Shown: in pieces, positions 6,660 to 28,431 of the stretch
How the letters are laid out: each line of letters opens with the position of its first letter
Position numbering within the stretch: the first letter of the stretch is position 1
Assembly (NCBI GenBank): GCA_964590345.1
Contig: CAZPVP010000001.1
Span: 7,937-71,936 of the forward strand
Direction: 5' to 3'
Source: an uncultured Gammaproteobacteria bacterium
GTDB taxonomy: Bacteria; Patescibacteriota; Patescibacteriia; CAIXNZ01
DNA length: 64,000 nt
Made by a program: the position numbers and the translations under genes
The notes under the pieces: generated by a model
Databases searched by the model: none
What the model saw: only the letters and a program-made list of their open reading frames with translations
What the model was told of the DNA's origin: nothing

Positions 6660-6686
6660 AAAAACCCTTAATTTAAAGGGCTTCAT
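6660..6686 (-). terminator. rho-independent terminator (minus strand)
   Basis: On minus strand: AGCCCTT-taaatta-AAGGGTTTTTT downstream of stop of 6708..7019. Confidence 0.5.
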
Positions 6687-6707
6687 CAGGGTATTAAAAA
6701 ATAAACT

Positions 6708-7019
6708 CTAAGCATTTTCAGCTTTAAGCAATTCTACTTTTTTTTCTAACTCATAAATTCTTTTCTTTAATACTTCAATCTCTTGATAATTGGGTTTAAT
6801 ATCTTCATCGGTTCTTTTATCAATTTTATCAAGCCTCTCTTTTATATCTGCCAGTTCTTCTTCAATCTTATCTAGTCTCAGTATAATTGGAGCCAATTTT
6901 TCATCTAACTTATCATCCATCATTTTTTCCATAGCAGGCAATAATGTCTCTTCAGTAAATTGCGCTAAACCCTCATGGAATTTTTGTTGAGTTAAGGAAT
7001 TTTGATCATTTTCAGGCAT
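6708..7019 (-). CDS. small coiled-coil hypothetical protein
   Basis: 103 aa, heptad-like charged repeats (LDKIEEELADIKERLDKIDKR). Confidence 0.4.
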   Translation of the reverse strand: MPENDQNSLTQQKFHEGLAQFTEETLLPAMEKMMDDKLDEKLAPIILRLDKIEEELADIKERLDKIDKRTDEDIKPNYQEIEVLKKRIYELEKKVELLKAENA

Positions 7020-7058: not shown

Positions 7059-8552
7059 TTATCTATGCAAAATATATTCGTAAATCAAATGAATAATAGA
7101 GCTTTTCGTTAACAAAGTAATTATCACACCTAATAGCATAAAAGGCGCAAAAGAAAAAGTTTTGTGCAAAATAATATGTTCAACCGGCGGATGTCCTTGG
7201 GCTTTAATTTCTTTATTTCTTTTTCTAATCATCTTTTTGATCTTCTCAGCCTGTTCCCGAGTCAATTTTCCGCGTAGGGATTTTATAAATATCTTAATCT
7301 CATTATTGTCACTTAAAATTAAATTTAACTGGTCTTTTTGTTCATTAGTTAATTTTTTTGTTATTTTATCAATTAAATCCTCCTCTGTTTTTTTATTTTT
7401 TTTATACTGATAAATATCTCTGATTAAAGAAGGCAAAGCATGAGGACTTAATCTTCTAAAAAATGAAATGAATTTATACTGCTTCCTATCCTGACTATCT
7501 TTTTTAGCTTTAATTAACTCCCAAAGGTGATCAAATTCTTCTTCTGGTAAAACATCTTTCACTTGTTTTTTAAATTTAGCAATATCCTTGTCAGTTTTAA
7601 AAATATCATTAAGTTGACTTTTGTTAATATATACTCCCGCCTGTAAATCATTGACTGGAATCATTCTCACTTCAGCTGAATTATAAAAAAATTGACCCAA
7701 CCTTTTACCATATTTAAAAATATAAAAAAATAACATCATAAATATCATTTGCAAAGCAAAAACTTTATGAAAATCTTCTATAATACTTTCATGAAAATAA
7801 ACTATTGTGCCAATAAAATATATTGCTATTAAAATTAAGGCAATAATTATTTTTTTTTGCAAAAATTGACGCAACGGACGAAAAATCAAAAACCCTATGA
7901 AGAAATATATAACATAAAAAAGATTACCTAAAAGTGGATCTAAAAAATTTTTAAACTTAGCTCTTATTAACTGAAATAAAATCAAAATTATTATAAAACT
8001 TAAACTAGTATATATGAATTCTTTAATTTTTATTTTATTTACTTTATGTTTTGATTTATAATTTTGAAAATATTTTTCAATTAATTTTGGTCTAAATAAA
8101 TAACTTACACCTAATTGGACTGGATACAATAACATTTTAATCAACAAATAAATAAAAATCGGCAAAATAATATTAATTAACAAGGTTAATGCAGGAAAAT
8201 ACTTAAAGTAAATAATGCCATAAAAACTAAAAGGAATTAAAAAAGCATAAAGTAAAAATAGCTTAGCATCACCACCTGACCAAAGTTTTAAATACCATAA
8301 GATAAAACCTAAAGCAAAAGCCAAACCAAAATTAGTTAATAAATATAAATAATCTAACCAATTAACTTCATATCTGGCTAATAATAAAATTATTAAAACT
8401 ACTATATTAATAACAGCTCCTAAAAATAAACCAATTTTTATCCATTTATTTTTAATTTTATTATACCTATAATCTTCGTAACAAACAATCAAGCCAATAA
8501 TTAAAACTATTAATATAAAAATATATACGATTACCTTGTTAAACAAAACCAT
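7059..8552 (-). CDS. A24-family prepilin-peptidase-like polytopic membrane protein with long charged C-terminal extension
   Basis: 497 aa; N-terminal multi-TM region containing LWSGGDAKLFLLYAF (GxGDxKL aspartyl-peptidase motif) and upstream YEDYRYNKIKN (first catalytic Asp context); last gene of the radical-SAM operon. Confidence 0.45.
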   Translation of the reverse strand: MVLFNKVIVYIFILIVLIIGLIVCYEDYRYNKIKNKWIKIGLFLGAVINIVVLIILLLARYEVNWLDYLYLLTNFGLAFALGFILWYLKLWSGGDAKLFLLYAFLIPFSFYGIIYFKYFPALTLLINIILPIFIYLLIKMLLYPVQLGVSYLFRPKLIEKYFQNYKSKHKVNKIKIKEFIYTSLSFIIILILFQLIRAKFKNFLDPLLGNLFYVIYFFIGFLIFRPLRQFLQKKIIIALILIAIYFIGTIVYFHESIIEDFHKVFALQMIFMMLFFYIFKYGKRLGQFFYNSAEVRMIPVNDLQAGVYINKSQLNDIFKTDKDIAKFKKQVKDVLPEEEFDHLWELIKAKKDSQDRKQYKFISFFRRLSPHALPSLIRDIYQYKKNKKTEEDLIDKITKKLTNEQKDQLNLILSDNNEIKIFIKSLRGKLTREQAEKIKKMIRKRNKEIKAQGHPPVEHIILHKTFSFAPFMLLGVIITLLTKSSIIHLIYEYILHR

Positions 8553-8556
8553 ACAA

Positions 8557-9441
8557 TTAAAATTTAACTGGTTTAATTATTTTTAAAACTGAATTATCAG
8601 AATCAACTTCAACAACATCGCCTTCAAAAAAATACTTATAAAAATTAATATTACTATAGATTAAAGGTTTTTTAATTTCTCGAAAAATCACTGCAACATG
8701 AGATGTATAACTATTTACTGGAGCAATAGTTGCCTTTACATTAATAAAATAAGGTAACAAATCCAAAGTTACTTTATTAATTAATAAAATATGATTCTTG
8801 AGTACTGCATCCTCTTTGTCAAACAGAAACTTAATTTCGCCAATCAAATTAGTATTTAAATTCATAATCTTTACAGGAATTTGCTTTTTAATATTCCTAC
8901 TATCATTAATCTCAGATAAAACTCTTAACATTTTTTCATCTTTATTTAATTTCGCAGATTCTAATATCTTTTTAATAACTCCTATATAACTTCCATAATA
9001 ATATGTTTTTCTTTGATAAGTAAAATTCCATTCATTTTTTATTTGTTGATATATATTTAATTGTTGAAATAATACATTTTTTATATTAATTAAATCACAT
9101 TCTTTTCTATATATATCAAATTTATCAGCAGGCAAAGAATAAATTTCAATTCGAGCATACTTTTTGACAAATTTCGCATATTCTTTAAAAAATTCAGAAC
9201 CATATGGAGGAATTAACTGCTCTTGATTTACAAATTCAACTTCCCAAGGAATTTTTGAATCTTTAATTAATATTTGGAATTGATTAAATTTATTATTTTT
9301 TAAAAAATAATAATCTTTAAAAAATAAACGGTTTTCAATAATCCAATCCTGATAACCAACCCCCCAACTATTAAGCATCTTATTCAAGCTTAATAATATT
9401 ACTTTAGTTTTATTTTCATTGTTTAAACTATTTAAAATCAT
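8557..9441 (-). CDS. hypothetical protein with C-terminal PEP-utilizing-enzyme mobile (phosphohistidine) domain-like segment
   Basis: C-terminal 60 aa VKATIAPVNSYTSHVAVIFREIKKPLIYSNINFYKYFFEGDVVEVDSDNSVLKI resembles PF00391 consensus (TSHAAIIARE..P....G..V.VDG). Confidence 0.35.
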   Translation of the reverse strand: MILNSLNNENKTKVILLSLNKMLNSWGVGYQDWIIENRLFFKDYYFLKNNKFNQFQILIKDSKIPWEVEFVNQEQLIPPYGSEFFKEYAKFVKKYARIEIYSLPADKFDIYRKECDLINIKNVLFQQLNIYQQIKNEWNFTYQRKTYYYGSYIGVIKKILESAKLNKDEKMLRVLSEINDSRNIKKQIPVKIMNLNTNLIGEIKFLFDKEDAVLKNHILLINKVTLDLLPYFINVKATIAPVNSYTSHVAVIFREIKKPLIYSNINFYKYFFEGDVVEVDSDNSVLKIIKPVKF

Positions 9442-9445
9442 AATT

Positions 9446-19905: not shown

Positions 19906-20086
19906 ATTTATTAAACAATAAACGCAAATTTTTTTTGAATATCCTTAAATATAAAACATCTACAATAATATATTCTTTTGCCAAATATGCCTTTAATTGT
20001 GAAATTCCCATGGGCAAAAAAGATCTATTATTGTCTATTAGATATTTAAATCCACCATTATAAATTAAATTTATTTTATTTTTCAT
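19829..20086 (-). CDS. small hypothetical protein between radical SAM genes
   Basis: 85-aa K/N-rich ORF, no Cys/His core; sits exactly in the gap between the two rSAM genes if the downstream paralog starts at about 19827. Confidence 0.3.
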   Translation of the reverse strand: MKNKINLIYNGGFKYLIDNNRSFLPMGISQLKAYLAKEYIIVDVLYLRIFKKNLRLLFNKFEMCKYYNIKNRFSWLLFKKNKNKN

Positions 20087-20088
20087 TG

Positions 20089-21171
20089 CTAATCTAAATT
20101 ATACAATTTTTTAAAAATAGTATTATTTTTTAATTTTTTAAAATAATTGAATAATATTTTATTAAAACTATATCGTAATTTTACTTGACTAGAATAAAAT
20201 CTCATAAAATTCAGGTTGTTATCCTGACAATAGATATATAAATCTATAGGACAAAATGGGACATTATTAAGATTAATTTTATTATTTAATTGTTTGATTT
20301 TCCTTTGCAAAAAATCAGCTTTATTAATCTCAATATTATCAGTTTTATTCAATTTATATTTTTCAAATAAACTCTTGTTGAACAAGCAACTTTGGCAAAG
20401 AAAAACATTTCCGTCATAATTAATTCTATATTTTTCACAATTTAATAATCTATGATTCTCATTATTTATTAATGATTCTAAATTAGTAATCTTAATGATT
20501 TTTTTATTTTTATTATCAACAAATAAACCAAAATAATCTTGCATTAAATTTTTAAAAAACCGTAAGCATTCTTTAATTTCATGATCCGACCAAAACTTAT
20601 AATTTTCAATGCCCAAATCAACGGCTTTAAATCCCATTTTATTAAAAAATAAAATATCTTTAGTTAATGAATTAAGATTATTGGGAGAAACAACTTTTGA
20701 AATAAATATTTTGGGAAAAATTGAAAAATCATTAAAATTTTTCAAATGTTGGGTAACCTGATCAAAGACTGATTTATTATTATTTTTAAATTTACGATTT
20801 TTATCATTTGTTTCCCTCTGTCCATCCAAACTTAAAATTATATTTAGATTTTCTTGAAGTAAATAATTCAAAATTTCATTATTAAACAAAGTACCATTAG
20901 TAATTAAACTGATTTCGTAATCAAAACCGACTTCGCTTTGCTTTTCTTTTATAAAAGAAACTAATTCCTGCAATTCTTTAAAAGAAAGTAAGGGTTCTCC
21001 GCCAGTAAAAGTAATAAATAAAAAGCTATTTTTATTTAAAAAATAGCTTAAATTTTCTTTTATTTTTTTTAGATTTATCTTATTGTTTTCTTGTTTTTTT
21101 ACATAACAATAATGGCAAGCCAAGTTGCACTTTGAATTTAAATGTATATATAAACTTAATTCTTTTTCCAT
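20089..21171 (-). CDS. radical SAM enzyme (HxsC-like position), with C-terminal Cys cluster
   Basis: 360 aa; CNLACHYCYV (Cx3Cx2C); FTGGEPLL; C-terminal CEKYRINYDGNVFLCQSC. Confidence 0.65.
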   Translation of the reverse strand: MEKELSLYIHLNSKCNLACHYCYVKKQENNKINLKKIKENLSYFLNKNSFLFITFTGGEPLLSFKELQELVSFIKEKQSEVGFDYEISLITNGTLFNNEILNYLLQENLNIILSLDGQRETNDKNRKFKNNNKSVFDQVTQHLKNFNDFSIFPKIFISKVVSPNNLNSLTKDILFFNKMGFKAVDLGIENYKFWSDHEIKECLRFFKNLMQDYFGLFVDNKNKKIIKITNLESLINNENHRLLNCEKYRINYDGNVFLCQSCLFNKSLFEKYKLNKTDNIEINKADFLQRKIKQLNNKINLNNVPFCPIDLYIYCQDNNLNFMRFYSSQVKLRYSFNKILFNYFKKLKNNTIFKKLYNLD

Positions 21172-21210
21172 ACATATCTTTTTCTAATTACCCCAAAATT
21201 AATTTTTCTT

Positions 21211-22101
21211 TTATTCCTCTTTTAAATATATAATATCAGTAGCATATTGACTATCAGTAAAACCTTCATAACAACATTGATTTAATTTATATTTTTCAAT
21301 AAATTGATTAATTTTTCTTGATTCAACTGCATTTTTAATATCCTTGCATATTTCATTATTACCATTTAAGTCCAAACATACAAATCTAGTTAAATCATCT
21401 TCAATCAAAGAACAATCGCTTAAATTTTCAATTAAATATAATGATAAATTATTCTTACAACTTTGGCTTGTCAAATCTTCTAATCTTGCTTCTTTTAAAT
21501 TAATAACCTTGGAACACCTTTCTTTTTCATCCTCTGAAGTTATAGCGAAACATGTATCATCCTGTACATTATCACAATATGATTCAGCAGCATAAATACC
21601 ACTTAACCATAAATCTTCACAATCTGGAGTTTTGGGTTGAACAACTTTATTTTCTTCACATATTTCTAAAAATCTATCCTTGTCATTTTTCTTCATAAAA
21701 TTCATGGCCGCAAAAACACCGACTTTCTTTTGACAATAACGTCTATTAGTACTACCTGGAAAATGATTATTAAAAACACTATTACATTCATCTAAAATAG
21801 CATTAGTATTATTTTTAATATTACAAAAAACATACAATTCCATTAAATAATAATAAGCTGCATAAGGCAGTTCAAGATTCTTAATATCCTGTAAATATTT
21901 ATTTTTTTCTTCAGTCTCTTGACGTGCTTTTTCTTCTTCTGTCAAAGGTGGCTGATTAATATTAGTTGGTTCTTTAGGTTGGTTAATTATTACTTCTGGC
22001 TCTAACTCAGCTGGAATTTTAATAAAAAAATATACTATTATGCCAACTAAAAGTATTAATATAATAATTATTAATATTAAGACAAAGATTGTTTTTTTCA
22101 T
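21211..22101 (-). CDS. membrane-anchored Cys-rich extracytoplasmic protein
   Basis: 296 aa; N-terminal TM (IFVLILIIIILILLVGIIVYFFI), Pro/Glu-rich linker, then about 20 Cys spread over about 200 aa. Confidence 0.5.
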   Translation of the reverse strand: MKKTIFVLILIIIILILLVGIIVYFFIKIPAELEPEVIINQPKEPTNINQPPLTEEEKARQETEEKNKYLQDIKNLELPYAAYYYLMELYVFCNIKNNTNAILDECNSVFNNHFPGSTNRRYCQKKVGVFAAMNFMKKNDKDRFLEICEENKVVQPKTPDCEDLWLSGIYAAESYCDNVQDDTCFAITSEDEKERCSKVINLKEARLEDLTSQSCKNNLSLYLIENLSDCSLIEDDLTRFVCLDLNGNNEICKDIKNAVESRKINQFIEKYKLNQCCYEGFTDSQYATDIIYLKEE

Positions 22102-22119
22102 AAAATCATTTATTAAAAA

Positions 22120-22524
22120 TTAGCACAATCCGACACCACTACTATGATGTCCATGAGAGCCATGAGAGCCATGAGAGCCATGAGAGCCATGAGAGCCATG
22201 AGAACCATGTGAACAATGTGAACCAACATTACCGTCATTATGAACAAAATTATTATGGCCATGCTGTCCCGTGTTCATTGGATTATTCCCAGCCTTCGTA
22301 CAATCACCATCTCCTGCTACATTTCTACAGCCAGGAATATTATTGGTTCCGTTTGTACCTCCTGAATCACAAGCCGGGACTGCTGCTTCTGCTTCTTCAG
22401 CTAAAATCCCTAAAGCAGTCACGCCAATACCAAGCATAATAATATCTTTTTTAGTTATTTTGCCCTCTTCATCATTTAAAAATTCATTAAATTTTTTCTT
22501 TAATTTCGGTAATTTATTTTTCAT
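22120..22524 (-). CDS. His-Xaa-Ser repeat protein, candidate RiPP precursor (HxsA-like)
   Basis: 134 aa; charged N-terminus, hydrophobic segment IIMLGIGVTALGILA, Gly/Asn/Cys-rich middle, C-terminal HCS-(HGS)x6-HGHHSSGVGLC. Immediately downstream of the SPASM rSAM gene. Confidence 0.6.
   Translation of the reverse strand: MKNKLPKLKKKFNEFLNDEEGKITKKDIIMLGIGVTALGILAEEAEAAVPACDSGGTNGTNNIPGCRNVAGDGDCTKAGNNPMNTGQHGHNNFVHNDGNVGSHCSHGSHGSHGSHGSHGSHGSHGHHSSGVGLC
22136..22205. repeat. perfect 9-bp tandem repeat (CCATGAGAG)n, about 6 copies plus 2 degenerate, coding the HGS repeats
   Basis: catgagagccatgagagccatgagagccatgagagccatgagagccatgagaaccatgtgaac read directly. Confidence 0.85.
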
Positions 22525-22551
22525 AAGTATTTGATTTTATATTAATTTATT

Positions 22552-24054
22552 TTATTTTTTAAATTCTTGAGTTCTAGATTTTCTTACCCATTCAGTAAAT
22601 ATATCTTTATTTTTACGATTTTTAAGCTTTTTAAACAAATATTCCACAATTGCCTCATCTATCTTATATTTTACATTATTTTTGGCTGCAGGGAAAATAT
22701 TATTATAAACAGAATAATTATAAACCGGGCAAATTCCTAAATATGGCTGATAAACATTTTGCTCATAAGCTGGCTGGCCATTAGAGCAAGAGGCTAGACA
22801 AATTGATTTGCATAAATCATTATTAATTAATTGCTCAAGATTATTTTCATTAATATTGCCAAGCTTAAACATGTCATCACCCATTCTGGCAATCATCCTG
22901 CCTTCATCACAAGTATAAACATCGCCATTATAATTATAAGCTAGCTGGCCAATACCAGCCCCGCAGGGAGAGCGCATATCCAAATTATTATAATCCTTAT
23001 TAAATAAAATTTTTGTTAAATAAGTTATTGCTGTAGCTTCAGAAAATAATCTGCCCTTATAATTTTTTTCCAATATATAATCAAGTGATTTTTTATAAAA
23101 ATTAATATATTCTTTTGGCGTATACCAAATTTTTTCTTTTGCTTTAACAGCAAAACCATAAGGATTTAAATAACGCAAATAAATATTTTTAAAGCCCAGT
23201 TTAATATAAGCATCTATTACTTTTTTATAATTTTCAAAAGTCTTTTTTGTGATTGTAATCAATGCGCCCACTCTGTAATAATTTCTTTTTTTGCCTTTAT
23301 ATTTTTCCTTATAAGCCTGATTAATCTTTTTTATCCATTTGGCTGTCTGCTGCCAGCTATTGCCGTGCAAAAAAACACGGTTGTAATTATGAGTTTCTTC
23401 GTCGCCATCCAAAGATGTGCAGAAATTAACTTCATTATCCATTAAAAATTTCATTTTCTTTTCATCAAGCAAACTAAAATTGGAAACCAACCTGATTTGC
23501 AAATCTTTTTTTTCTAATTTATTTTTCTCCCTTGAATAATCAACAATAAATTTAACTATGGGCCAGTTTAATAATGGCTCGCCGCCCTGAAATTCAATGG
23601 CAACCGCATTATTATTGGTTTTAAAAATAGTGTCAACTATTTTCTTGGCAGTAGCCATGTCCATATCCAAACTGTTGTCTTGTGCCTCGCCAGCGCTGGC
23701 ATGGCAGTAAATGCACTTATGATTGCAGCGCAAAGTTACCACAATAATATGAAGTGACGGGCCAAATTTTAAAAAATCATTTTTTTGCCTAAAGCCCTCA
23801 ATCAATTGATTTTGATAATTTTCATCTTTAATGAACAGATTATCTTTTAATTCCTGATATGTCTTATTTTTTTTTGTTAATTTGCCGGTTATGAATTTTT
23901 TAAAATCTTTTTCATCAATAAAAACATATTTGCCAACATCATTGGTTAATAAATAAGTATTTTTATCAAACTTTTTAAAGCGGAAAAATCCGACTTTTTT
24001 GGTATCTAACTTGTTGATGGTTTTTAGGTCTAGCATATTATCGCAAATGGCCAA
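22552..24054 (-). CDS. radical SAM/SPASM-domain peptide-modifying enzyme (HxsB-like / anaerobic-sulfatase-maturase-like)
   Basis: 500 aa; about 100-aa N-terminal extension, then CNHKCIYCHA (Cx3Cx2C), FQGGEPLL, C-terminal SPASM Cys pattern (CGAGIGQLAYNYNGDVYTCDEG ... CKSICLASCSNGQPAY...GICPV). Confidence 0.7.
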   Translation of the reverse strand: MAICDNMLDLKTINKLDTKKVGFFRFKKFDKNTYLLTNDVGKYVFIDEKDFKKFITGKLTKKNKTYQELKDNLFIKDENYQNQLIEGFRQKNDFLKFGPSLHIIVVTLRCNHKCIYCHASAGEAQDNSLDMDMATAKKIVDTIFKTNNNAVAIEFQGGEPLLNWPIVKFIVDYSREKNKLEKKDLQIRLVSNFSLLDEKKMKFLMDNEVNFCTSLDGDEETHNYNRVFLHGNSWQQTAKWIKKINQAYKEKYKGKKRNYYRVGALITITKKTFENYKKVIDAYIKLGFKNIYLRYLNPYGFAVKAKEKIWYTPKEYINFYKKSLDYILEKNYKGRLFSEATAITYLTKILFNKDYNNLDMRSPCGAGIGQLAYNYNGDVYTCDEGRMIARMGDDMFKLGNINENNLEQLINNDLCKSICLASCSNGQPAYEQNVYQPYLGICPVYNYSVYNNIFPAAKNNVKYKIDEAIVEYLFKKLKNRKNKDIFTEWVRKSRTQEFKK

Positions 24055-24077: not shown

Positions 24078-24431
24078 CTAATTTAAAATTGATTTTTTAA
24101 AAGCTTTAATCTTTTTTATTAAAATTTCAGCATTTATATACATGTTATCTTTTTCTGACTCACAAATATATCCTTTTATCTTCGCGAATATTAAAATATT
24201 AATTGTTTCATAAATTGAATTAATTGCAATATTCAAATATCTGCAGAATATTTTATTTGAATCAGAACCGCTACCTTCAACAATATTATTTGCTATTGAA
24301 ATAGCTGATCGTCTTAATTGATTCGCCAAAGCGAATAATTCATAATCAGGAAATTGTTTAGCTAAGTCATAACAATTATTAGCGTAATTTATAGATAATT
24401 TCCAAATTTCTAAATCTTCAAATCTAAACAT
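24078..24431 (-). CDS. four-helix-bundle protein (23S rRNA intervening-sequence protein family)
   Basis: MFRFEDLEIWKLS...FPDYE..LANQLRRSAISIANNIVEGSG matches the TIGR02436-type signature. Confidence 0.7.
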   Translation of the reverse strand: MFRFEDLEIWKLSINYANNCYDLAKQFPDYELFALANQLRRSAISIANNIVEGSGSDSNKIFCRYLNIAINSIYETINILIFAKIKGYICESEKDNMYINAEILIKKIKAFKKSILN

Positions 24432-24456: not shown

Positions 24457-24657
24457 TTAGCTAAGTAAGCCAAGCACATAATTGGCAAACTCGTCATCCA
24501 AAATATCTTTCACTTCCTTGTCAATTTTATTCATTTTAACCTCTATATAACCGTTTGTTTCTTTTACTTTAAAATCAGCTAAATTTTTAAATTCTTCAAC
24601 TGCTTGTTTCACAGCTTCTATATTATATATCTTTTTATTGAATTTGATAATGTCCAT
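24457..24657 (-). CDS. small hypothetical protein
   Basis: 66-aa ORF. Confidence 0.3.
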   Translation of the reverse strand: MDIIKFNKKIYNIEAVKQAVEEFKNLADFKVKETNGYIEVKMNKIDKEVKDILDDEFANYVLGLLS

Positions 24658-24756: not shown

Positions 24757-25236
24757 TTATTTTTTCTTTTTATTCTTTTTTTTGCTCTTTTTATTCTCGT
24801 CAGCCAAATTTTGTTCTTCCCAGGTCTTGGCAATGCCCAAAGGATCTTCCTGCCAATCCTCTTCTTCTACTTCTTTTAAAAGCTCGGCAACTTCATTTGG
24901 CACTGCGCTGTAAAGCGCCTGTGAAACAATATATTCTCTTATTTTGGCATTGGTTTGGCTGATTTTTTCGCGCAACAATTGATTTAAAAGTTCATTATAA
25001 AACTCGCCGGCTATTTTTTCCAGTTCTTCTTTCCTTTTTTCCTCTTTTTGCCCTTCTTTCCTTTTCATAATTACCTTAATCTCTTTTTTCGGATCACCAT
25101 CAAGAAAAACATATACTTTATCCAAAAACAAATAAGCGGCTTGGTAAATAGCTGTTAACGGATATATTTTGGTATTTATTTTAAATTCTATTTTTTTATC
25201 TCTTATTTTAAAATTAAAATCTTTATTTTGTGACAT
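24757..25236 (-). CDS. hypothetical protein with lysine-rich C-terminal tail
   Basis: 159-aa ORF. Confidence 0.35.
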   Translation of the reverse strand: MSQNKDFNFKIRDKKIEFKINTKIYPLTAIYQAAYLFLDKVYVFLDGDPKKEIKVIMKRKEGQKEEKRKEELEKIAGEFYNELLNQLLREKISQTNAKIREYIVSQALYSAVPNEVAELLKEVEEEDWQEDPLGIAKTWEEQNLADENKKSKKKNKKKK

Positions 25237-25306: not shown

Positions 25307-26206
25307 CTAATTTTCTTCTTTTGCCTTGCAGCAAACCATGCTCGCTTCTGTACCGTCACCATAAACATCAAGATCAAAAACAAAATATCCATCGGGGCAA
25401 CAAGATAGCTGATCACCGCCACAAGCAATTTCTGCTTGATCACTGCTTCTTTTATTGGTTTTTGCATTAGCAATATCATCAGTAATATCCCAAGTTTCTA
25501 CTGTGCAAAACTTATTACCATCTAAAGTAATAAGTTCTTCAACATTAGCTGTGCCGCCTGAAGTAATTGTAAATTGATTATCACCGCCAACAACTAATTC
25601 TGTCTCGCCTGAAAACAAATTAAAACTATCAGCCAAAACTTTGTCCACATAAATAGTATTGGGGGAAGGATTAGGAAAATTATTCATAAAAATTAAGCCC
25701 GCATCATTAACTATAAAATTTTTCTTCATGATTATTTTATCACTCTTTAATTCCAAAGCCCCAAACTTAGCTGAAATTCTAAAATCACTAAATGGACTTG
25801 TCACAGTAATAGTATTAGTCTTTAAAAAACTCTCGCCTGACAGCTGGTGGACAGCCATTTGCCTTGTTGGATTACTTTCATCAGTTGTAAAAATTCCGGC
25901 GGGATCTAAAAATATCAAATTATTGGAAACAGCGAAAAAAGCAGTGCTTTCACTACCCTCATCGCCTTTTAAAGCTTCGTGCCAGACGCTGTTAGCTGTT
26001 TCACAATCGTTTTGGTTAATATAAGAGGGATCTTCACAATAGCCGGACAAAGCATCGCCAACCAAAATATAATCGCCGTCTGTTTTTAAAGTTGAATCAA
26101 TTAAAAAACTATTATATCTTGAATCATAATTAAAACTTGCCCAAGCCACTGACGCTGAAAGCATAAAAACAGCCATAATTAAACAAATTTTGTAAATTTT
26201 GCTCAT
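25307..26206 (-). CDS. secreted hypothetical protein (paralog family A), C-terminal Cys-rich motif
   Basis: Signal peptide MSKIYKICLIMAVFMLSASVAWA; C-terminal CGGDQLSCCPDGY...MVCC. Confidence 0.45.
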   Translation of the reverse strand: MSKIYKICLIMAVFMLSASVAWASFNYDSRYNSFLIDSTLKTDGDYILVGDALSGYCEDPSYINQNDCETANSVWHEALKGDEGSESTAFFAVSNNLIFLDPAGIFTTDESNPTRQMAVHQLSGESFLKTNTITVTSPFSDFRISAKFGALELKSDKIIMKKNFIVNDAGLIFMNNFPNPSPNTIYVDKVLADSFNLFSGETELVVGGDNQFTITSGGTANVEELITLDGNKFCTVETWDITDDIANAKTNKRSSDQAEIACGGDQLSCCPDGYFVFDLDVYGDGTEASMVCCKAKEEN

Positions 26207-26260
26207 TTTTCTTAAATTAAAATCATAAAAAAGTAAAAAACATCAATTTACTAAAATCAG

Positions 26261-27136
26261 CTAAGGAATAGCGGGGCAATTTTCATTATTAAAACCATCA
26301 ACACACAAATAACAACAAATGGTCGTCGCCCCTGTCCCTTTCAAGCCATCCCAATTCCAATCAATTTCTCCGTCAAGACTCTCATATTCTTTTTGGGCAT
26401 AGAAATCCTTACCGCCATTTGCCTCACCGCATTTACCATCAATAGATCTCCAGCATAAATTCTGATTAGCTAAAGCATCATCTTCCGTACCCAAATCTAT
26501 TTCTTCAAAAGTCAAATGTGACGGCTCAAATTCAATTTCATTTTCATCTAAACTCGTTAAACTCGTTAAATATAATTTTTCTGTTTTTAAATTAGCTGGC
26601 TCAGGACAATTTTCAGTGCCGTCATTAACAAAACAACCGTCTATTCTTGTTTTTGCCACTCTCACTGGATCATTAGTGATTATTTCTTGGCCTGATGACA
26701 ATTTTATTGTTGGTGTCTCGGTTGCGGTTGCTATTATTTTTTCAACCCTTAATTCATATAAATCATAAGTCTCAGTAGTAATTGCTTTTAAACCTAAATC
26801 AGACTCCGGATACCAGATAAGCACCTTGTTTTCACAATCTGTGTTTTTAGGCAAATTTGTCTGCGGATATCTTTCATCTTTGCAAAAATAAAATTTTGAA
26901 TCTTTATCCAAAACAAATTTTTCTTCCACTAAAACATCACCGAATAAAGCATTGAGGTTTTCTGAAAAAGACTCTTCTACAATCAGATATCCATTAATAT
27001 ATAAACTGTCCAGAATAAAAAACTCATTATCTTTTTCTATAAAATAACCTTTGCCCTGAGCCAAAACAAAATCACCGATTACTAAAGTTAAAGCAATCAA
27101 ACAAAGCAAAAAGGAAATTTTATAAACTTTTGTCAT
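26261..27136 (-). CDS. secreted hypothetical protein (paralog family A)
   Basis: Signal peptide MTKVYKISFLLCLIALTLVIGDFVLA; C-terminal ICCYLCVDGFNNENC; internal 10-bp duplication coding LTSLTSL. Confidence 0.45.
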   Translation of the reverse strand: MTKVYKISFLLCLIALTLVIGDFVLAQGKGYFIEKDNEFFILDSLYINGYLIVEESFSENLNALFGDVLVEEKFVLDKDSKFYFCKDERYPQTNLPKNTDCENKVLIWYPESDLGLKAITTETYDLYELRVEKIIATATETPTIKLSSGQEIITNDPVRVAKTRIDGCFVNDGTENCPEPANLKTEKLYLTSLTSLDENEIEFEPSHLTFEEIDLGTEDDALANQNLCWRSIDGKCGEANGGKDFYAQKEYESLDGEIDWNWDGLKGTGATTICCYLCVDGFNNENCPAIP

Positions 27137-27137
27137 T

Positions 27138-27821
27138 TTATTCTATTTTGGATTTATCAATATAAATTATTCTTTGAGGATTAAAAATCGCTCCCTCACT
27201 AAATCTTAATTTAGGCAAATATAAGCTATCATCTCTGTCCGGATTATTTGTCACGAGATTAACTCTTAAAGAATTAACAAAAACACTGTCACTATCTTCT
27301 TCATCTGTAACCAGATCAGAAACCACCAAATTATTGCTTTCTGCATCAATGCCAGTACAAGTTTCAGTATTGATATCCGGGCTTGACGGACATAAAATTA
27401 ATGAATTAGTATCCAAAATAACAGGATCGCCATTTAAATCAATATTGGTTGTTTCTGAAATAAGATTAATAGAATCACCCTCAACATTATCTATCTCTAA
27501 AAAAGTATTTCCGCCTATATCACCTATAACTGCCTGGCAATTAAATTCTTGGGGATAATTAGGGCAATTAAAACCCATCAAGTGTCGTACATAAAGGTCT
27601 TTGTCCATAACTTTAATGATTCCATGCTCAACTGTCTCTGTATCATTAATACCAAACTCAGATATTTTTAAACCACTGCCTGTCTTTCTTACATTATCCC
27701 AAATTATAACTTTATTATTATCTTCAAAACTAATAAAACCGGCTGCCTGAACAAGCAAAACACTGCCAACTAATAAGATGGCTGAAAATAAACAAATTTT
27801 AAAAACCTGATTTAATTTCAT
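27138..27821 (-). CDS. secreted hypothetical protein (paralog family A)
   Basis: Signal peptide MKLNQVFKICLFSAILLVGSVLLVQA. Confidence 0.45.
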   Translation of the reverse strand: MKLNQVFKICLFSAILLVGSVLLVQAAGFISFEDNNKVIIWDNVRKTGSGLKISEFGINDTETVEHGIIKVMDKDLYVRHLMGFNCPNYPQEFNCQAVIGDIGGNTFLEIDNVEGDSINLISETTNIDLNGDPVILDTNSLILCPSSPDINTETCTGIDAESNNLVVSDLVTDEEDSDSVFVNSLRVNLVTNNPDRDDSLYLPKLRFSEGAIFNPQRIIYIDKSKIE

Positions 27822-27906
27822 AATAATATAGCAAATGGCTTATGGCGAATAACAAATAGCCAATATTTAAATTCAAATCTCAAATTTCAGATCTCAGATT
27901 TAAAAT

Positions 27907-28431
27907 TTATTCTTCCTCTTTTTTCTTCTTGCGGATCAATACCATAACCACAATTGGCGTAACCAGCCAAAAAAATCTAGCCGGATCAGAAACGAATATG
28001 TTCTTCATTGCCACAGAAAGATTATTTTCCAACATTTCATTTGGCAAATATGACATTAAAATACTTAAAATTAAACCAACATGAAAAAAACTAAAAACGA
28101 TTGACTGCCACCAAGCGCCGTCGCTGTCTTTGCTGGCAATTGTTCTTAATAATGCTCCGCGGGACAGCAAAAAAAATAAAATCACAAAAATACCGACAAA
28201 AACAGTGAATTTGAAAATTGAAGCATTATTATAACTGATTTCAGCAGAAAAATTATTTAAATAAGGCGCAGTATTCACAATGGCCAAAGCCATATAAATA
28301 CTGACCAAAATAACAATTATGCGATTACGGCCCAAAGACAAGCCATACAAAAATGCAGCCACGACAAAAAACAAGATTATAAACAAATCCCAAGTAGGTG
28401 TTGCCCAATTTAAATTAAAGAGAAAATCCAT
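27907..28431 (-). CDS. polytopic membrane protein, hypothetical
   Basis: 174 aa, 4-5 predicted TM helices. Confidence 0.4.
   Translation of the reverse strand: MDFLFNLNWATPTWDLFIILFFVVAAFLYGLSLGRNRIIVILVSIYMALAIVNTAPYLNNFSAEISYNNASIFKFTVFVGIFVILFFLLSRGALLRTIASKDSDGAWWQSIVFSFFHVGLILSILMSYLPNEMLENNLSVAMKNIFVSDPARFFWLVTPIVVMVLIRKKKKEEE

What the first reader, a model, noticed from the sequence alone, without database searches (positions are those of the whole stretch)
7059..24054. About 17 kb single-direction operon: His-Xaa-Ser-like repeat peptide plus eleven radical-SAM enzymes
Fifteen tightly packed minus-strand genes, several with overlapping stop/start codons, run from 24054 to 7059. Order: SPASM rSAM (500 aa), HGS-repeat small protein, Cys-rich membrane-anchored protein, rSAM (360 aa), 85-aa ORF, seven short tandem rSAM paralogs interrupted by a GT1-like glycosyltransferase, rSAM-HD-kinase-like fusion (889 aa), PEP-utilizer-domain protein, A24 peptidase-like protein. 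Eleven Cx3Cx2C proteins in 15 kb is extraordinary. The front end resembles the His-Xaa-Ser (HxsA/HxsB/HxsC) system defined bioinformatically in TIGRFAMs and never characterized biochemically. The downstream expansion with HD/kinase/PEP-utilizer and glycosyltransferase domains has no described counterpart that I know of. This is the best candidate for an undescribed RiPP-like or protein-maturation system in the window.
Basis: partly seen in the sequence, partly recalled or inferred. Interest (0 to 1): 0.9.

Follow-up and report, generated by a model that had tools for sequence, protein, structure and literature searches.

The report
Expanded His-Xaa-Ser radical-SAM maturation operon
A candidate-phyla (Patescibacteria) bacterium carries a much enlarged version of the recently characterised HXS anti-phage system, in which one small membrane-anchored His-Gly-Ser repeat protein sits in an operon with ten radical-SAM enzymes, a prepilin-type peptidase and phosphoryl- and glycosyl-transfer-like proteins; the chemistry of this enlarged form is unknown.

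Summary
The system also starts further upstream than the finding says, at HxsD (24757-25236) and an HxsD-like gene (24457-24657).

The front end is a true His-Xaa-Ser system. HxsB, HxsD and HxsD-like pass NCBIfam's curated cut-offs. The 134-aa protein has seven consecutive HxS repeats.

"Never characterised" is out of date. HXS was shown in 2026 to be an E. coli anti-phage system that matures a periplasmic HxsA.

The eight short radical-SAM (rSAM) enzymes are HxsC-like. They share the core and the auxiliary-cluster motifs but fail the HxsC cut-off and lack its N-terminal domain. They are only 24-36% identical to each other.

The enlargement is not unique to this window. HxsB loci from Patescibacteria, Elusimicrobia, Omnitrophota and Myxococcota carry 0-8 further rSAM genes in the 10 kb downstream of HxsB, up to 13 per 21-kb locus. 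I found no paper describing this.

Close relatives hold differently composed arrays in the same chromosomal slot, between DnaJ and CysS. A C7-C2-C3-A24 cassette also occurs on its own.

Most likely the locus produces a heavily modified, membrane-anchored HxsA. I class it as a new variant of a known kind.

The parts
24757..25236 (-). HxsD (159 aa).
   Evidence: TIGR03976 scores 64.5 bits against a cut-off of 50. Orthologues of 65-76% identity sit in the same position in L001-L005 and L114.
24457..24657 (-). HxsD-like small protein (66 aa).
   Evidence: NF038315 HxsD_rel scores 76 bits against a cut-off of 41. It is present next to HxsB in 32 of 56 loci.
24078..24431 (-). Four-helix-bundle protein (23S rRNA IVS type). 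Probably an inserted passenger gene, not a functional part of the system.
   Evidence: TIGR02436 scores 95.6 bits. It is present at the same spot in L001 but absent in L002 and L114.
22552..24054 (-). HxsB, an rSAM/SPASM maturase. The likely true start is the ATG at 24036.
   Evidence: TIGR03978 scores 499.8 bits against a cut-off of 370. Pfam finds Radical_SAM plus SPASM. It is 37% identical over its full length to the Aeromonas HxsB. M7 is invariant in alignment A1.
22120..22524 (-). HxsA-like precursor (134 aa): conserved leader ...KKKFNEFLNDEEG, one hydrophobic helix (residues 26-45), a Cys-containing linker, HCS plus six HGS repeats (103-123), and the tail HGHHSSGVGLC.
   Evidence: HxsA3 scores 39.2 (cut-off 65) and HxsA4 42.3 (cut-off 55), both below cut-off. 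The leader is conserved across phyla.
21211..22101 (-). Cys-rich protein with an N-terminal membrane anchor (296 aa, 14 Cys). Function unknown.
   Evidence: No family hit. Orthologues of 25-29% identity follow HxsA in L001, L003 and L114.
20089..21171 (-). Second peptide-maturase-type rSAM enzyme (360 aa). It carries a partial SPASM/twitch motif, CX9GX4C...CX2C.
   Evidence: Best hit is PapB at 127.5 bits, below its cut-off of 340. Pfam finds Radical_SAM. The motif was read from the sequence. Relatives lie next to HxsA in about 22 of the 82 HxsB-centred loci annotated.
19829..20086 (-). 85-aa ORF, conserved, function unknown.
   Evidence: 60% identity in L001 and 45% in L003, at the same position. 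No family hit.
18967..19827 (-). C1, an HxsC-like rSAM enzyme (286 aa counted from the internal ATG; the ORF extends to 19905).
   Evidence: Best hit is HxsC at 78.3 bits against a cut-off of 267.9. Pfam Radical_SAM scores 70.5. It has Cx3Cx2C plus a C-terminal CxxCx6C.
17829..18974 (-). C2, an HxsC-like rSAM enzyme (381 aa). It is a member of the cassette that recurs across phyla.
   Evidence: HxsC scores 100.4 bits. Orthologues of 36-61% identity occur in many loci and are usually followed by C3.
16892..17827 (-). C3, an HxsC-like rSAM enzyme (311 aa). Cassette member.
   Evidence: HxsC scores 92.7 bits. Orthologues of 42-75% identity occur across phyla.
16018..16899 (-). C4, an HxsC-like rSAM enzyme (293 aa).
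   Evidence: HxsC4 scores 86.2 bits. Orthologues of 46-63% identity occur in close relatives only.
15104..16021 (-). C5, an HxsC-like rSAM enzyme (305 aa).
   Evidence: HxsC4 scores 128.5 bits. Orthologues of 50-68% identity occur in close relatives.
14243..15100 (-). C6, an HxsC-like rSAM enzyme (285 aa).
   Evidence: HxsC scores 87.3 bits. Orthologues of 37-48% identity occur in L087 and L114.
12996..14246 (-). Possible GT-B glycosyltransferase (416 aa). The assignment is weak.
   Evidence: Pfam Glycos_transf_1 scores 20.8 bits, below the gathering score of 26.4. No PDB sequence hit. The AF2 model has pLDDT 38 and is unusable. Relatives carry other glycosyltransferases: GT9 in L090 and PMT_2 in L113.
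12122..13009 (-). C7, the most widely conserved HxsC-like rSAM enzyme (295 aa).
   Evidence: HxsC4 scores 153.1 bits against a cut-off of 500. Orthologues of 46-73% identity occur in 23 of 56 HxsB loci. In close relatives it is fused to an APH-like domain.
9446..12115 (-). C8 fusion (889 aa): an HxsC-like rSAM core (about residues 1-200, without the C-terminal Cys motif), a middle region plus HD domain (about 250-560), and an APH/kinase-like domain (about 613-861) whose catalytic motifs look degenerate.
   Evidence: Pfam finds Radical_SAM and HD. PDB entry 2pq7, an HD hydrolase, matches. Only one protein (P0122) among 1.84 billion representatives covers residues 244-888. hhalign links it to the C-terminal domain of relatives' C7 fusions (97.4%, E 1.3e-11), and that domain in turn matches the APH protein of L090 (81%). 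The direct comparison with APH is not significant.
8557..9441 (-). Protein with a PEP-utilising mobile (phospho-histidine swivel) domain (294 aa). The N-terminal 200 aa are unassigned.
   Evidence: PF00391 scores 27.9 bits against a gathering score of 23.1. The TSH motif is present (sequence). Orthologues of 27-34% identity occur in L004, L087 and L118.
7059..8552 (-). A24-family aspartyl peptidase-like membrane protein (497 aa): about 8 hydrophobic segments, a soluble region (282-463) and a final hydrophobic segment.
   Evidence: PF01478 scores 27.9 bits against 26.5. D27 and the GGD95 motif are conserved (85% or more of sequences) in the window protein and homologues from 11 other Hxs loci. 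About 30 Patescibacteria orthologues of 45-56% identity exist, and the five traced to a locus (L087, L089, L090, L114, P0122 contig) all close the array.
6661..7019 (-). 103-aa coiled-coil ORF (6708-7019) and a terminator-like hairpin (6661-6684), which is the probable end of the operon.
   Evidence: The pattern scan is weak evidence.
25307..28431 (-). Four conserved upstream genes: three secreted proteins (299, 291 and 227 aa) and one multi-pass membrane protein (174 aa). Whether they belong to the system is uncertain.
   Evidence: No family hits. They lie next to HxsD in L001-L005, with a different upstream context in L001. They are not detected in more distant loci.

Best explanation
The locus is an expanded, Patescibacteria-type His-Xaa-Ser (HXS) protein-maturation operon. 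It is built from three layers.

1. Canonical front end: HxsD, an HxsD-like protein, HxsB (an rSAM/SPASM enzyme) and the precursor HxsA.
2. A separable cassette that recurs across phyla: HxsC-like rSAM enzymes (C7, C2, C3) with an A24 aspartyl peptidase.
3. Lineage-specific additions: the Cys-rich membrane protein, a second SPASM-like rSAM enzyme, C1, C4, C5, C6, the rSAM-HD-APH-like fusion, the PEP-utiliser swivel protein and a possible glycosyltransferase.

Proposed course of events (inferred):
- HxsA is made with a conserved N-terminal leader (..KKxxxFLxxEEG).
- In the cytoplasm HxsB, the second SPASM-like enzyme and the HxsC-like paralogues install radical modifications on the His-Gly-Ser repeats and the neighbouring Cys. 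HxsD and the HxsD-like protein act as partner proteins, as HxsD does for HxsC in E. coli.
- The phosphoryl-transfer proteins and the glycosyltransferase-like protein tailor Ser residues or supply a group that is attached to the protein.
- The hydrophobic helix inserts into the membrane.
- The A24 peptidase removes the leader at the conserved Gly on the cytoplasmic face.
- The end product is a heavily modified His-rich peptide anchored on the cell surface.

By analogy with E. coli HXS, this product would act at the envelope, for example against phage DNA entry.

What is shown: the identity of the parts, their conservation and the modular build. What is inferred: the substrates, the order of steps, the cleavage and the biological role.
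For: - HxsB, HxsD and HxsD-like pass curated cut-offs.
- HxsA has seven HxS repeats.
- C1-C8 always hit HxsC or HxsC4 best.
- C1 and C3-C7 share with the canonical HxsC the motifs Cx3Cx2C, GGE, TNG, PxC and the C-terminal CxxCx5-6CxG.
- In E. coli, HxsB, HxsC and HxsD are all needed for HxsA processing and a +8 Da modification, and HxsC binds HxsD (PMC13128918).
- The genes are packed tightly on one strand with overlapping stop and start codons.
- Five relatives end the array with the A24-like gene: L002+L087, L001+L089, L005+L090 and L114, where the gene after it is or appears to be CysS, and the P0122 contig, which ends about 180 nt after it. In L002+L087 and L005+L090 the array also follows the DnaJ block; in L001 it follows ribosomal-protein genes.
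- The HxsA tail type changes together with the array content.
- The A24 catalytic Asp residues are conserved in homologues from 11 other Hxs loci in several phyla.
- Among 46 HxsA leaders, the position before the hydrophobic helix is Gly in all but three: two have Ala and one (L063) has no leader.
- Many proteins fuse 2-3 HxsC-like rSAM domains, which argues that the paralogues work together.
- Kinase and glycosyltransferase genes recur: APH plus GT9 in L090 and PMT_2 in L113.
- Myxococcota HxsA proteins carry Tat-like signals, which fits modification before export.
Against: - No C paralogue reaches the HxsC cut-off. All lack the roughly 105-aa N-terminal domain of the canonical HxsC.
- Of 19 C7-centred metagenome loci with a full 10 kb on each side, only 7 have HxsB and 5 have an HxS ORF nearby. 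A stand-alone rSAM-C7-C2-C3-A24 cassette exists.
- L113 holds ten or more rSAM domains with no HxsA or HxsB in 22.7 kb.
- The number of repeats does not track the number of rSAM genes (Spearman -0.16, p 0.31).
- Outside the Hxs families, the HxsC-like enzymes most resemble small-molecule enzymes such as MoaA, NirJ, AhbD, BlsE and viperin.
- The HxsA leader matches no pilin or Flp model.
- The window's repeats (HGS) lack the Arg residues of the E. coli effector, and there is no peptidoglycan-binding domain, so the DNA-binding model may not carry over.
- No experiment exists for any Patescibacteria system.
Confidence: 0.55

Rival explanations
1. Hybrid or small-molecule pathway. Only the front end (HxsB, HxsD, perhaps the 360-aa rSAM enzyme) acts on HxsA. 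The HxsC-like array, with the HD, APH-like, PEP-utiliser and glycosyltransferase proteins, builds or tailors a small molecule (nucleotide, sugar-phosphate or lipid-linked). That molecule is then either attached to HxsA or used on its own at the membrane.
For: - The C7-C2-C3-A24 cassette and large rSAM arrays occur without HxsA or HxsB within 10 kb.
- C7 is repeatedly tied to phosphoryl-transfer domains: fused to an APH-like domain in relatives, followed by an HD protein in L190, and followed by the HD/APH-like fusion in the window.
- Other arrays carry aminotransferases, a pyruvoyl arginine decarboxylase and PMT-type glycosyltransferases.
- The nearest non-Hxs families are MoaA, NirJ, BlsE and viperin.
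- The C paralogues have no N-terminal peptide-binding domain.
Against: - A C7 orthologue lies within 10 kb of HxsB in 23 of 56 loci across phyla.
- The canonical HxsC, which shares the same core and auxiliary-cluster motifs, is genetically required for HxsA maturation.
- In the window the genes sit in one translationally coupled operon with HxsA.
- Contigs limited to 10 kb of flank cannot exclude an HxsA gene elsewhere in the genome.
Confidence: 0.22
2. The locus is a conventional RiPP gene cluster. Its product is released as a diffusible peptide, such as a bacteriocin or a metal-chelating peptide.
For: - It has a leader-like conserved N-terminus, a repeat core, SPASM-type maturases related to PapB, SCIFF and QhpD enzymes, and a peptidase in the operon.
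- The His-rich and Cys-containing core would bind Ni, Zn or Cu.
Against: - A hydrophobic helix lies between the leader and the core, so it would stay on the product after cleavage at the conserved Gly.
- The operon has no ABC exporter or C39 peptidase.
- The characterised homologue is an anchored protein effector, not a released peptide.
Confidence: 0.08
3. The maturation chemistry is as in the best explanation, but the role is not defence. The modified His-rich surface peptide would serve metal capture, redox chemistry or attachment to the host cell on which these episymbionts live.
For: - The HGS repeats have no Arg or Lys, unlike the E. coli effector.
- One related locus lies next to a type IV pilus gene cluster.
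- The array sits in a conserved housekeeping slot, not in a mobile defence island.
- Conserved secreted proteins lie upstream.
Against: - The only experimental datum for the family is anti-phage defence.
- Variation in array content at a fixed locus fits an arms race.
Confidence: 0.12
4. The short rSAM enzymes are ordinary cofactor-biosynthesis enzymes (MoaA, QueE, PflA, NirJ) that happen to be clustered.
For: Weak secondary hits to MoaA, NirJ, AhbD and QueE.
Against: - Every such hit is far below its curated cut-off, for example MoaA at 81 bits or less against 231-325. HxsC or HxsC4 is always the best hit.
- The partner genes of those pathways are absent.
- The same paralogue sets recur next to HxsB and HxsA in many phyla.
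Confidence: 0.02

Closest known systems
HXS anti-phage system of E. coli (hxsD-hxsB-hxsC-hxsA; Li et al., Nat Commun 2026, PMC13128918; defined in silico as TIGR03976-03979)
   Same: - HxsB and HxsD are true family members.
- The substrate carries tandem His-Xaa-Ser repeats and is exported and anchored at the envelope.
- HxsC-type rSAM enzymes have the same core and the same auxiliary-cluster Cys motifs.
- The gene order starts with HxsD then HxsB.
   Different: - 10 rSAM enzymes here instead of 2.
- No HxsC equivalog.
- HxsA has a conserved cytoplasmic leader, a membrane helix and HGS repeats. The E. coli protein has a Sec signal, basic HRS/HSS repeats and a peptidoglycan-binding domain.
- Extra parts here: an HxsD-like protein, an A24 peptidase, HD, APH-like and PEP-utiliser proteins, a glycosyltransferase-like protein and a Cys-rich protein.
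- The host is a Patescibacteria bacterium, probably without an outer membrane (my own knowledge of the phylum, not tested here).
NCBIfam variant Hxs families (HxsD_rel NF038315, HxsA3 NF038309, HxsA4 NF038313, HxsC4 NF038332). These are curated models, and I found no publication describing them.
   Same: - HxsD_rel is met.
- The HxsA N-terminal leader aligns to positions 2-42 of the HxsA3 model.
- C7 and C5 are closest to HxsC4.
   Different: - HxsA3, HxsA4 and HxsC4 all score below their cut-offs.
- These models describe single proteins, not the multi-rSAM array.
rSAM/SPASM peptide maturation systems (ranthipeptide PapB, SCIFF, QhpD)
   Same: - HxsB and the 360-aa enzyme are of this type.
- A conserved Cys sits at the start of the repeat block (HCS), where a thioether link could form.
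   Different: - Scores are far below those families' cut-offs.
- The canonical HxsA has no Cys in its repeats.
- Those systems use one or two rSAM enzymes.
Peptide-derived cofactor pathways (mycofactocin MftA-F, PQQ). This comparison is from my own knowledge.
   Same: A small precursor, an rSAM enzyme with a small partner protein, a peptidase and a glycosyltransferase. Many HxsA proteins end in Gly-x-Trp or Gly-x-Tyr.
   Different: - The window's HxsA ends in Cys.
- It keeps a membrane anchor.
- No family of those pathways is matched above its cut-off (mycofactocin rSAM 50 bits or less against 265).
Prepilin / Flp-TadV processing by A24 peptidases. The motif resemblance is from memory.
   Same: - An A24 enzyme with both catalytic Asp residues is present.
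- The substrate has a charged leader ending in Gly (rarely Ala) ahead of a hydrophobic helix.
- The motif FLxxEEG resembles the FLKDESG of Caulobacter PilA.
   Different: - No Flp_Fap or N_methyl HMM hit on 30 leaders.
- Six charged residues lie between the Gly and the helix.
- The operon has no pilus assembly genes.
- The peptidase is about 500 aa, with an extra soluble domain.

Membership tests
HXS / His-Xaa-Ser system (TIGR03976-03979) | HxsB rSAM/SPASM maturase | tested here: met
   TIGR03978 scores 499.8 bits against a cut-off of 370, covering the full profile. The SPASM domain scores 26.4 against 21.5.
HXS / His-Xaa-Ser system (TIGR03976-03979) | HxsD small protein | tested here: met
   TIGR03976 scores 64.5 bits against a cut-off of 50 for 24757-25236.
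HXS / His-Xaa-Ser system (TIGR03976-03979) | HxsC rSAM equivalog | tested here: not met
   The best score among C1-C8 is 100.4 bits (C2) against a cut-off of 267.9. The Aeromonas HxsC control scores 395.9. The roughly 105-aa N-terminal domain is absent and identity is 19-24%. The core and auxiliary Cys motifs are shared.
HXS / His-Xaa-Ser system (TIGR03976-03979) | Substrate with tandem His-Xaa-Ser repeats | tested here: met
   Seven consecutive repeats, HCS plus six HGS, at residues 103-123.
HXS / His-Xaa-Ser system (TIGR03976-03979) | HxsA family model (Sec signal, peptidoglycan-binding domain) | tested here: not met
   TIGR03979 gives no hit at E of 0.01 or better, while the Aeromonas control scores 230.6. 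No peptidoglycan-binding domain is found.
HXS / His-Xaa-Ser system (TIGR03976-03979) | Four-gene operon in the order D-B-C-A | tested here: not met
   The order here is D, D-like, (4HB), B, A, followed by 14 more genes. The paper reports four genes in more than 99.8% of systems.
HXS / His-Xaa-Ser system (TIGR03976-03979) | Anti-phage activity; rSAM-dependent cleavage and +8 Da modification of HxsA | not testable with these tools
   Known only from E. coli experiments.
NCBIfam Hxs variants | HxsD-like protein (NF038315) | tested here: met
   76 bits against a cut-off of 41 for 24457-24657.
NCBIfam Hxs variants | HxsA3 (NF038309) or HxsA4 (NF038313) | tested here: not met
   HxsA3 scores 39.2 against 65 and HxsA4 42.3 against 55. 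The leader aligns to HxsA3 positions 2-42.
NCBIfam Hxs variants | HxsC4 (NF038332) | tested here: not met
   The best score is C7 at 153.1 bits against a cut-off of 500.
Radical SAM superfamily | Cx3Cx2C motif plus an HMM match | tested here: met
   The motif is present in 10 proteins. PF04055 scores above its gathering score for HxsB, the 360-aa enzyme, C1, C2, C7 and C8. C3-C6 have many rSAM family hits.
Peptidase A24 (prepilin peptidase, TadV, FlaK) | Family HMM and two catalytic Asp residues | tested here: met
   PF01478 scores 27.9 bits against 26.5. D27 and the GGD95 motif are conserved in the 12-sequence alignment (85% or more of sequences).
Peptidase A24 (prepilin peptidase, TadV, FlaK) | Substrate with a class III (pilin or Flp) signal peptide | tested here: inconclusive
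   A conserved Gly or Ala lies ahead of a hydrophobic helix in 45 of the 46 leaders retrieved. However, no Flp_Fap or N_methyl hit is found and no PDB match.
PEP-utilising enzymes (phospho-histidine swivel domain) | Mobile-domain HMM and the TSH phospho-histidine motif | tested here: met
   PF00391 scores 27.9 bits against 23.1. The sequence SYTSHVAVIFRE is present. No partner ATP-grasp or PPDK N-terminal domain was found.
APH / protein-kinase-like fold | Family HMM and the catalytic HxDxxxxN...D motifs in C8 residues 613-861 | tested here: inconclusive
   No Pfam hit. The direct hhalign comparison gives 0.5% probability. The top Foldseek hit is APH(9) at E 0.13, on a model with pLDDT 49. A transitive link exists: C8 to relatives' C7-fusion domain at 97.4%, and that domain to the L090 APH protein at 81%. 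The motifs in the window look degenerate (AFKGLQIVN, GTEH).
GT1 / GT-B glycosyltransferase | Family HMM above its cut-off | tested here: inconclusive
   20.8 bits against 26.4, E 3e-4. No PDB hit. The model is unusable.

The most novel reading that the evidence does not exclude
Uncultivated bacteria, especially Patescibacteria, use combinatorial sets of up to about a dozen divergent HxsC-like radical-SAM enzymes as a modular modification line. This line writes lineage-specific chemistry onto one membrane-anchored His-Gly-Ser repeat protein. A dedicated A24 peptidase then processes that protein in the manner of a pilin. The result would be a hypervariable envelope layer, used for defence or host interaction, whose diversity is encoded after translation. 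This would be a new way of diversifying a cell surface and a source of several unknown radical reactions on His, Gly and Ser.
Probability: 0.3. Interest if true: 0.85.

Novelty: new variant of a known kind. Interest (0 to 1): 0.68.

Why it matters
- The chemistry of HXS is unsolved even in E. coli, where the only lead is a +8 Da change. These enlarged loci offer eight or more divergent HxsC-type enzymes, and natural fusions between them, as handles on that chemistry.
- A bacterium of this reduced-genome phylum spends about 18 kb on one 134-aa protein. If the genome is near 1 Mb, which I infer from the phylum and did not measure, that is roughly 2% of it. This implies a function of high value at the cell surface.
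- Arrays of different content in the same chromosomal slot of close relatives point to fast diversification, as in an arms race.
- The 2026 survey placed 99.7% of HXS systems in Pseudomonadota with four genes. The metagenomic picture here is very different.

Tried and rejected
- Looking up the window's own proteins on public contigs failed three times, so the source organism is inferred only from homologues.
- A genome scan with C3 alone found nothing. I replaced it with an HxsB alignment.
- The AF2 models of the C8 C-terminal domain (pLDDT 49) and of the glycosyltransferase-like protein (pLDDT 38) were too poor to use. The Foldseek result is not significant.
- The promoter scan is uninformative in this AT-rich DNA: 165 sites against 138 +/- 12 expected.
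- Rfam found no RNA element in or near the operon.
- PADLOC gave only generic viperin-like rSAM hits and has no HXS model, since its database dates from 2023.
- 'One rSAM enzyme per repeat' is rejected: repeat number and rSAM number are uncorrelated.
- 'Recent tandem duplication' is rejected: the paralogues are only 24-36% identical, and several have orthologues in other phyla.
- Flp or pilin homology of the HxsA leader is not detectable by HMM.
- The window's glycosyltransferase-like protein is not related to the GT9 of L090.
- A phage origin is unlikely: the HxsB genes on viral contigs are all of the distant canonical type, 26-38% identical.

Full report
**Observation**

The region 7059-24054 holds 16 minus-strand ORFs. 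Gaps between them run from -14 to +39 nt, and five pairs overlap. Ten of the proteins carry Cx3Cx2C, not eleven:
- HxsB;
- a 360-aa enzyme;
- seven short enzymes, which I call C1-C7;
- the N-terminus of an 889-aa fusion, which I call C8.

C1 probably starts at the internal ATG at 19827. HxsB probably starts at 24036. GC content is 25% inside the array against 32-35% in the flanks. The same dip is seen in relatives.

**Identity of the parts**

HxsB scores 499.8 bits on TIGR03978 against a cut-off of 370, and has Radical_SAM and SPASM domains.

24457-24657 is the NCBIfam 'HxsD-like protein' (76 bits against 41). A four-helix-bundle (23S IVS-type) gene lies between the HxsD-like gene and HxsB. 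It is present in L001 and absent in L002 and L114, so it looks like a passenger.

The 134-aa protein has four regions:
- a charged leader;
- one hydrophobic helix (residues 26-45);
- a linker with three Cys;
- HCS plus six HGS repeats, then a tail ending in Cys.

It scores below the cut-offs of HxsA3 and HxsA4 and does not hit the canonical HxsA model.

C1-C8 always hit HxsC or HxsC4 best, at 58-153 bits. The cut-offs are 268 and 500, and a canonical Aeromonas HxsC control scores 396. They lack the roughly 105-aa N-terminal domain of HxsC. C1 and C3-C7 share its Cx3Cx2C, GGE, TNG, PxC and C-terminal CxxCx5-6CxG motifs. The paralogues are only 24-36% identical to each other, so they are old.

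The 360-aa enzyme is of the PapB/SCIFF type and has a partial SPASM motif.

The 889-aa protein has three parts:
- an rSAM core;
- an HD domain, which matches PDB 2pq7;
- a C-terminal domain with no direct Pfam hit. That domain is homologous to the C-terminal domain fused to C7 in relatives (hhalign 97.4%), and the relatives' domain in turn matches an APH kinase (81%). Its catalytic motifs look degenerate.

The 294-aa protein has a PEP-utiliser swivel domain with the TSH motif. The 497-aa protein is an A24 peptidase with both catalytic Asp residues. The GT1 assignment is below threshold.

**What is already known**

HXS is no longer uncharacterised. Li et al. (Nat Commun 2026, PMC13128918) showed the following:
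- E. coli hxsD-B-C-A blocks phage DNA entry.
- HxsC binds HxsD.
- Mature HxsA is periplasmic and bound to peptidoglycan.

They report that more than 99.8% of systems have four genes and that 99.7% are in Pseudomonadota. That paper does not mention Patescibacteria or a peptidase. None of my five searches on Hxs names or on radical SAM in these phyla, over the held library, returned a paper that describes multi-rSAM arrays.

**Relatives**

HxsB has 5,408 homologues at E below 1e-30. The closest, at 62-82% identity, are nearly all labelled Patescibacteria (Uhrbacteria, Falkowbacteria, Buchananbacteria, Parcubacteria), so the window is from that phylum.

I fetched eighty GTDB loci centred on HxsB. 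Together with two loci fetched earlier, I annotated them against the window's proteins. The usual pattern is HxsD, HxsD-like, HxsB, HxsA, then several rSAM genes. Of the 56 loci with at least 9 kb downstream:
- the first 10 kb hold 0-8 further rSAM genes (mode 6);
- 23 have a C7 orthologue;
- 18 have C2;
- 15 have C3;
- 10 have an A24 homologue.

One Saccharibacteria locus (L071) has 13 rSAM ORFs, an A24 gene and an HxsA with 51 repeats. So the window is at the upper end of the range but is not unique.

**The chromosomal slot**

A24 orthologues of 45-56% identity occur in about 30 Patescibacteria contigs, several of which are the contigs that carry the HxsB homologues. I joined the HxsB-centred and A24-centred loci to get complete arrays for three relatives. 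A fourth (L114) came from the metagenome scan.

In all four the array ends with the A24 gene. CysS follows in the three joined arrays, and a 458-aa ORF of CysS size follows in L114. The window has the same end, with a 103-aa ORF in between. Upstream, L002+L087 and L005+L090 follow the DnaJ block as the window does, L001+L089 follows ribosomal-protein genes, and L114 was not seen upstream of HxsD.

The content differs:
- L114: HxsD, HxsD-like, HxsB, HxsA, Cys-rich protein, C2, a 188-aa ORF with no match in the window, C3, C4, C5, C6, C7 and A24 only.
- L002+L087: 12 rSAM enzymes, including a B12-binding one, a U32 peptidase and a PEP-utiliser protein.
- L005+L090: a GT9 glycosyltransferase and an APH kinase just before the A24 gene.

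The window adds the 360-aa enzyme, the 85-aa ORF, C1, the glycosyltransferase-like protein, the C8 fusion and the PEP-utiliser protein.

The HxsA tail changes with array content. HHSSGxxC goes with the Cys-rich protein, the 360-aa enzyme, the 85-aa ORF, C1 and C2. GQW or GSY goes with the other sets.

The C8 fusion is almost unique. Among 1.84 billion representatives only one protein covers residues 244-888, and its gene too is followed by an A24-like gene. The same search found many proteins of 600-1,678 aa made of 2-3 HxsC-like rSAM domains.

**HxsA outside Proteobacteria**

Forty-six leaders retrieved from these loci share a common form:
- a leader of the form (l/i)PkiKKdiKxFLxSEEGK;
- a hydrophobic helix;
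- a short linker, often ending in Cys;
- (H[GAS]S)n repeats;
- a tail such as GQW, GSW, GGWC or SSY.

The residue before the charged spacer is Gly in all but three: two have Ala and one (L063) has no leader at all. Two Myxococcota versions have a Tat-like RRDFL signal instead. The leader recalls Flp prepilins, which is a resemblance from memory. It matches no Flp or pilin model.

**A reverse test**

Eighty metagenome loci centred on C7 show that the distal part is a separable module. Of the 19 loci with a full 10 kb on each side:
- only 7 have HxsB;
- only 5 have an HxS ORF;
- 8 have an A24 gene.

A five-gene cassette (rSAM, C7, C2, C3, A24) stands alone in L168, L174, L178 and L193. L113 holds ten or more rSAM domains and a PMT-type glycosyltransferase with no HxsA or HxsB in 22.7 kb. 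In L190 an HD protein follows C7.

**Interpretation**

The best-supported reading is an enlarged HXS maturation operon built from three layers: a canonical front end, a recurrent rSAM/A24 cassette, and lineage-specific tailoring genes. Its product would be a heavily modified, membrane-anchored HxsA.

The identities, the conservation and the modular build are shown. The following are inferred:
- that every enzyme acts on HxsA;
- that the A24 enzyme removes the leader at Gly21;
- that the phosphoryl-transfer and glycosyltransferase-like proteins tailor Ser residues;
- that the role is defence at the envelope.

The main rival is that the distal array makes or tailors a small molecule, whether or not it ends up on HxsA. 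The stand-alone cassettes, the repeated tie between C7 and HD or kinase-like domains, and the small-molecule flavour of the nearest non-Hxs families all keep it alive.

**Verdict**

This is a new variant of a known kind. The system belongs to the HXS family through HxsB, HxsD and the repeat substrate. It fails the HxsC, HxsA-model and four-gene criteria, and it adds parts with no described counterpart.

Interest is fairly high for three reasons. The chemistry is unknown. The investment is large for a bacterium of this reduced-genome phylum. The class is widespread yet undescribed in the literature I could search.

Noticed in passing
window 24078-24431: A four-helix-bundle (TIGR02436, 23S rRNA IVS-type) gene sits between the HxsD-like gene and HxsB. 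L001 has one at the same spot and also a PDDEXK_3 gene inserted between HxsB and HxsA. L002 and L114 have neither. These look like small mobile passenger genes that land in this operon.
   Followed up: partly
window 25307-28431: Three secreted proteins (299, 291 and 227 aa, with Cys-rich C-termini) and a five-helix membrane protein (174 aa) have no family hit. They lie next to HxsD in L001-L005, even though L001 has ribosomal-protein genes upstream of the block, not DnaK/DnaJ. They may belong to the system.
   Followed up: partly
window 7059-22101, and L087, L089, L090: The array has 6-8 points lower GC than its flanks (25% against 32-35%) in the window and in three relatives. The lineage-specific genes are the lowest: the 85-aa ORF at 17%, the 360-aa enzyme at 21% and the PEP-utiliser protein at 22%.
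   Followed up: partly
L168, L174, L178, L193 (for example L174 8902-14439): A stand-alone five-gene cassette (rSAM, C7-like, C2-like, C3-like, A24-like) occurs with no HxsB or HxsA within 10 kb. In L174 it sits between a PMT-like TPR membrane protein and ClpP. Its substrate is unknown.
   Followed up: partly
proteins P0126-P0264; L084 10001-13270; L113 10001-13213: Many proteins of 600-1,678 aa consist of two or three HxsC-like rSAM domains fused in tandem. This suggests that these paralogues act as physical complexes.
   Followed up: partly
L084 / L085: Another Patescibacteria Hxs locus lies directly downstream of a type IV pilus gene cluster (PilB/T, PilC, pilins, PilD). Its array contains aminotransferases and a pyruvoyl-dependent arginine decarboxylase.
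   Followed up: no
L075 11550-11894; L082 12986-13384: HxsA proteins from Myxococcota replace the FLxSEEG leader and helix with a twin-arginine-like signal (TRRDFLSSSS...). This implies export of an already modified protein.
   Followed up: no
L003 (CAZHFK010000007.1): The closest GTDB relative (HxsB 78% identical, same synteny with DnaJ and the upstream block) is titled 'uncultured Gammaproteobacteria bacterium'. That label is probably wrong for a Patescibacteria genome bin.
   Followed up: no
window 1-64000: Nearly every ORF of 120 aa or more in the 64-kb window is on the minus strand, and GC skew is negative throughout. The window seems to lie within one replichore with strong gene-strand bias.
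   Followed up: no
L091-L112 (IMG/VR): Twenty-two viral contigs carry HxsB-like genes, all 26-38% identical to the window's (the top nineteen cover most of the protein), which marks them as the distant canonical type. This fits the report that part of the E. coli HXS operons lie in prophages. None is of the Patescibacteria type.
   Followed up: no
window 19829-20086: The conserved 85-aa ORF (17% GC) has an N-terminus (INLIYNGGF...LPMGISQLKAYL) that recalls the start of a B12-binding-domain rSAM enzyme. It may be a remnant of such a gene, like the 878-aa one in L002.
   Followed up: no
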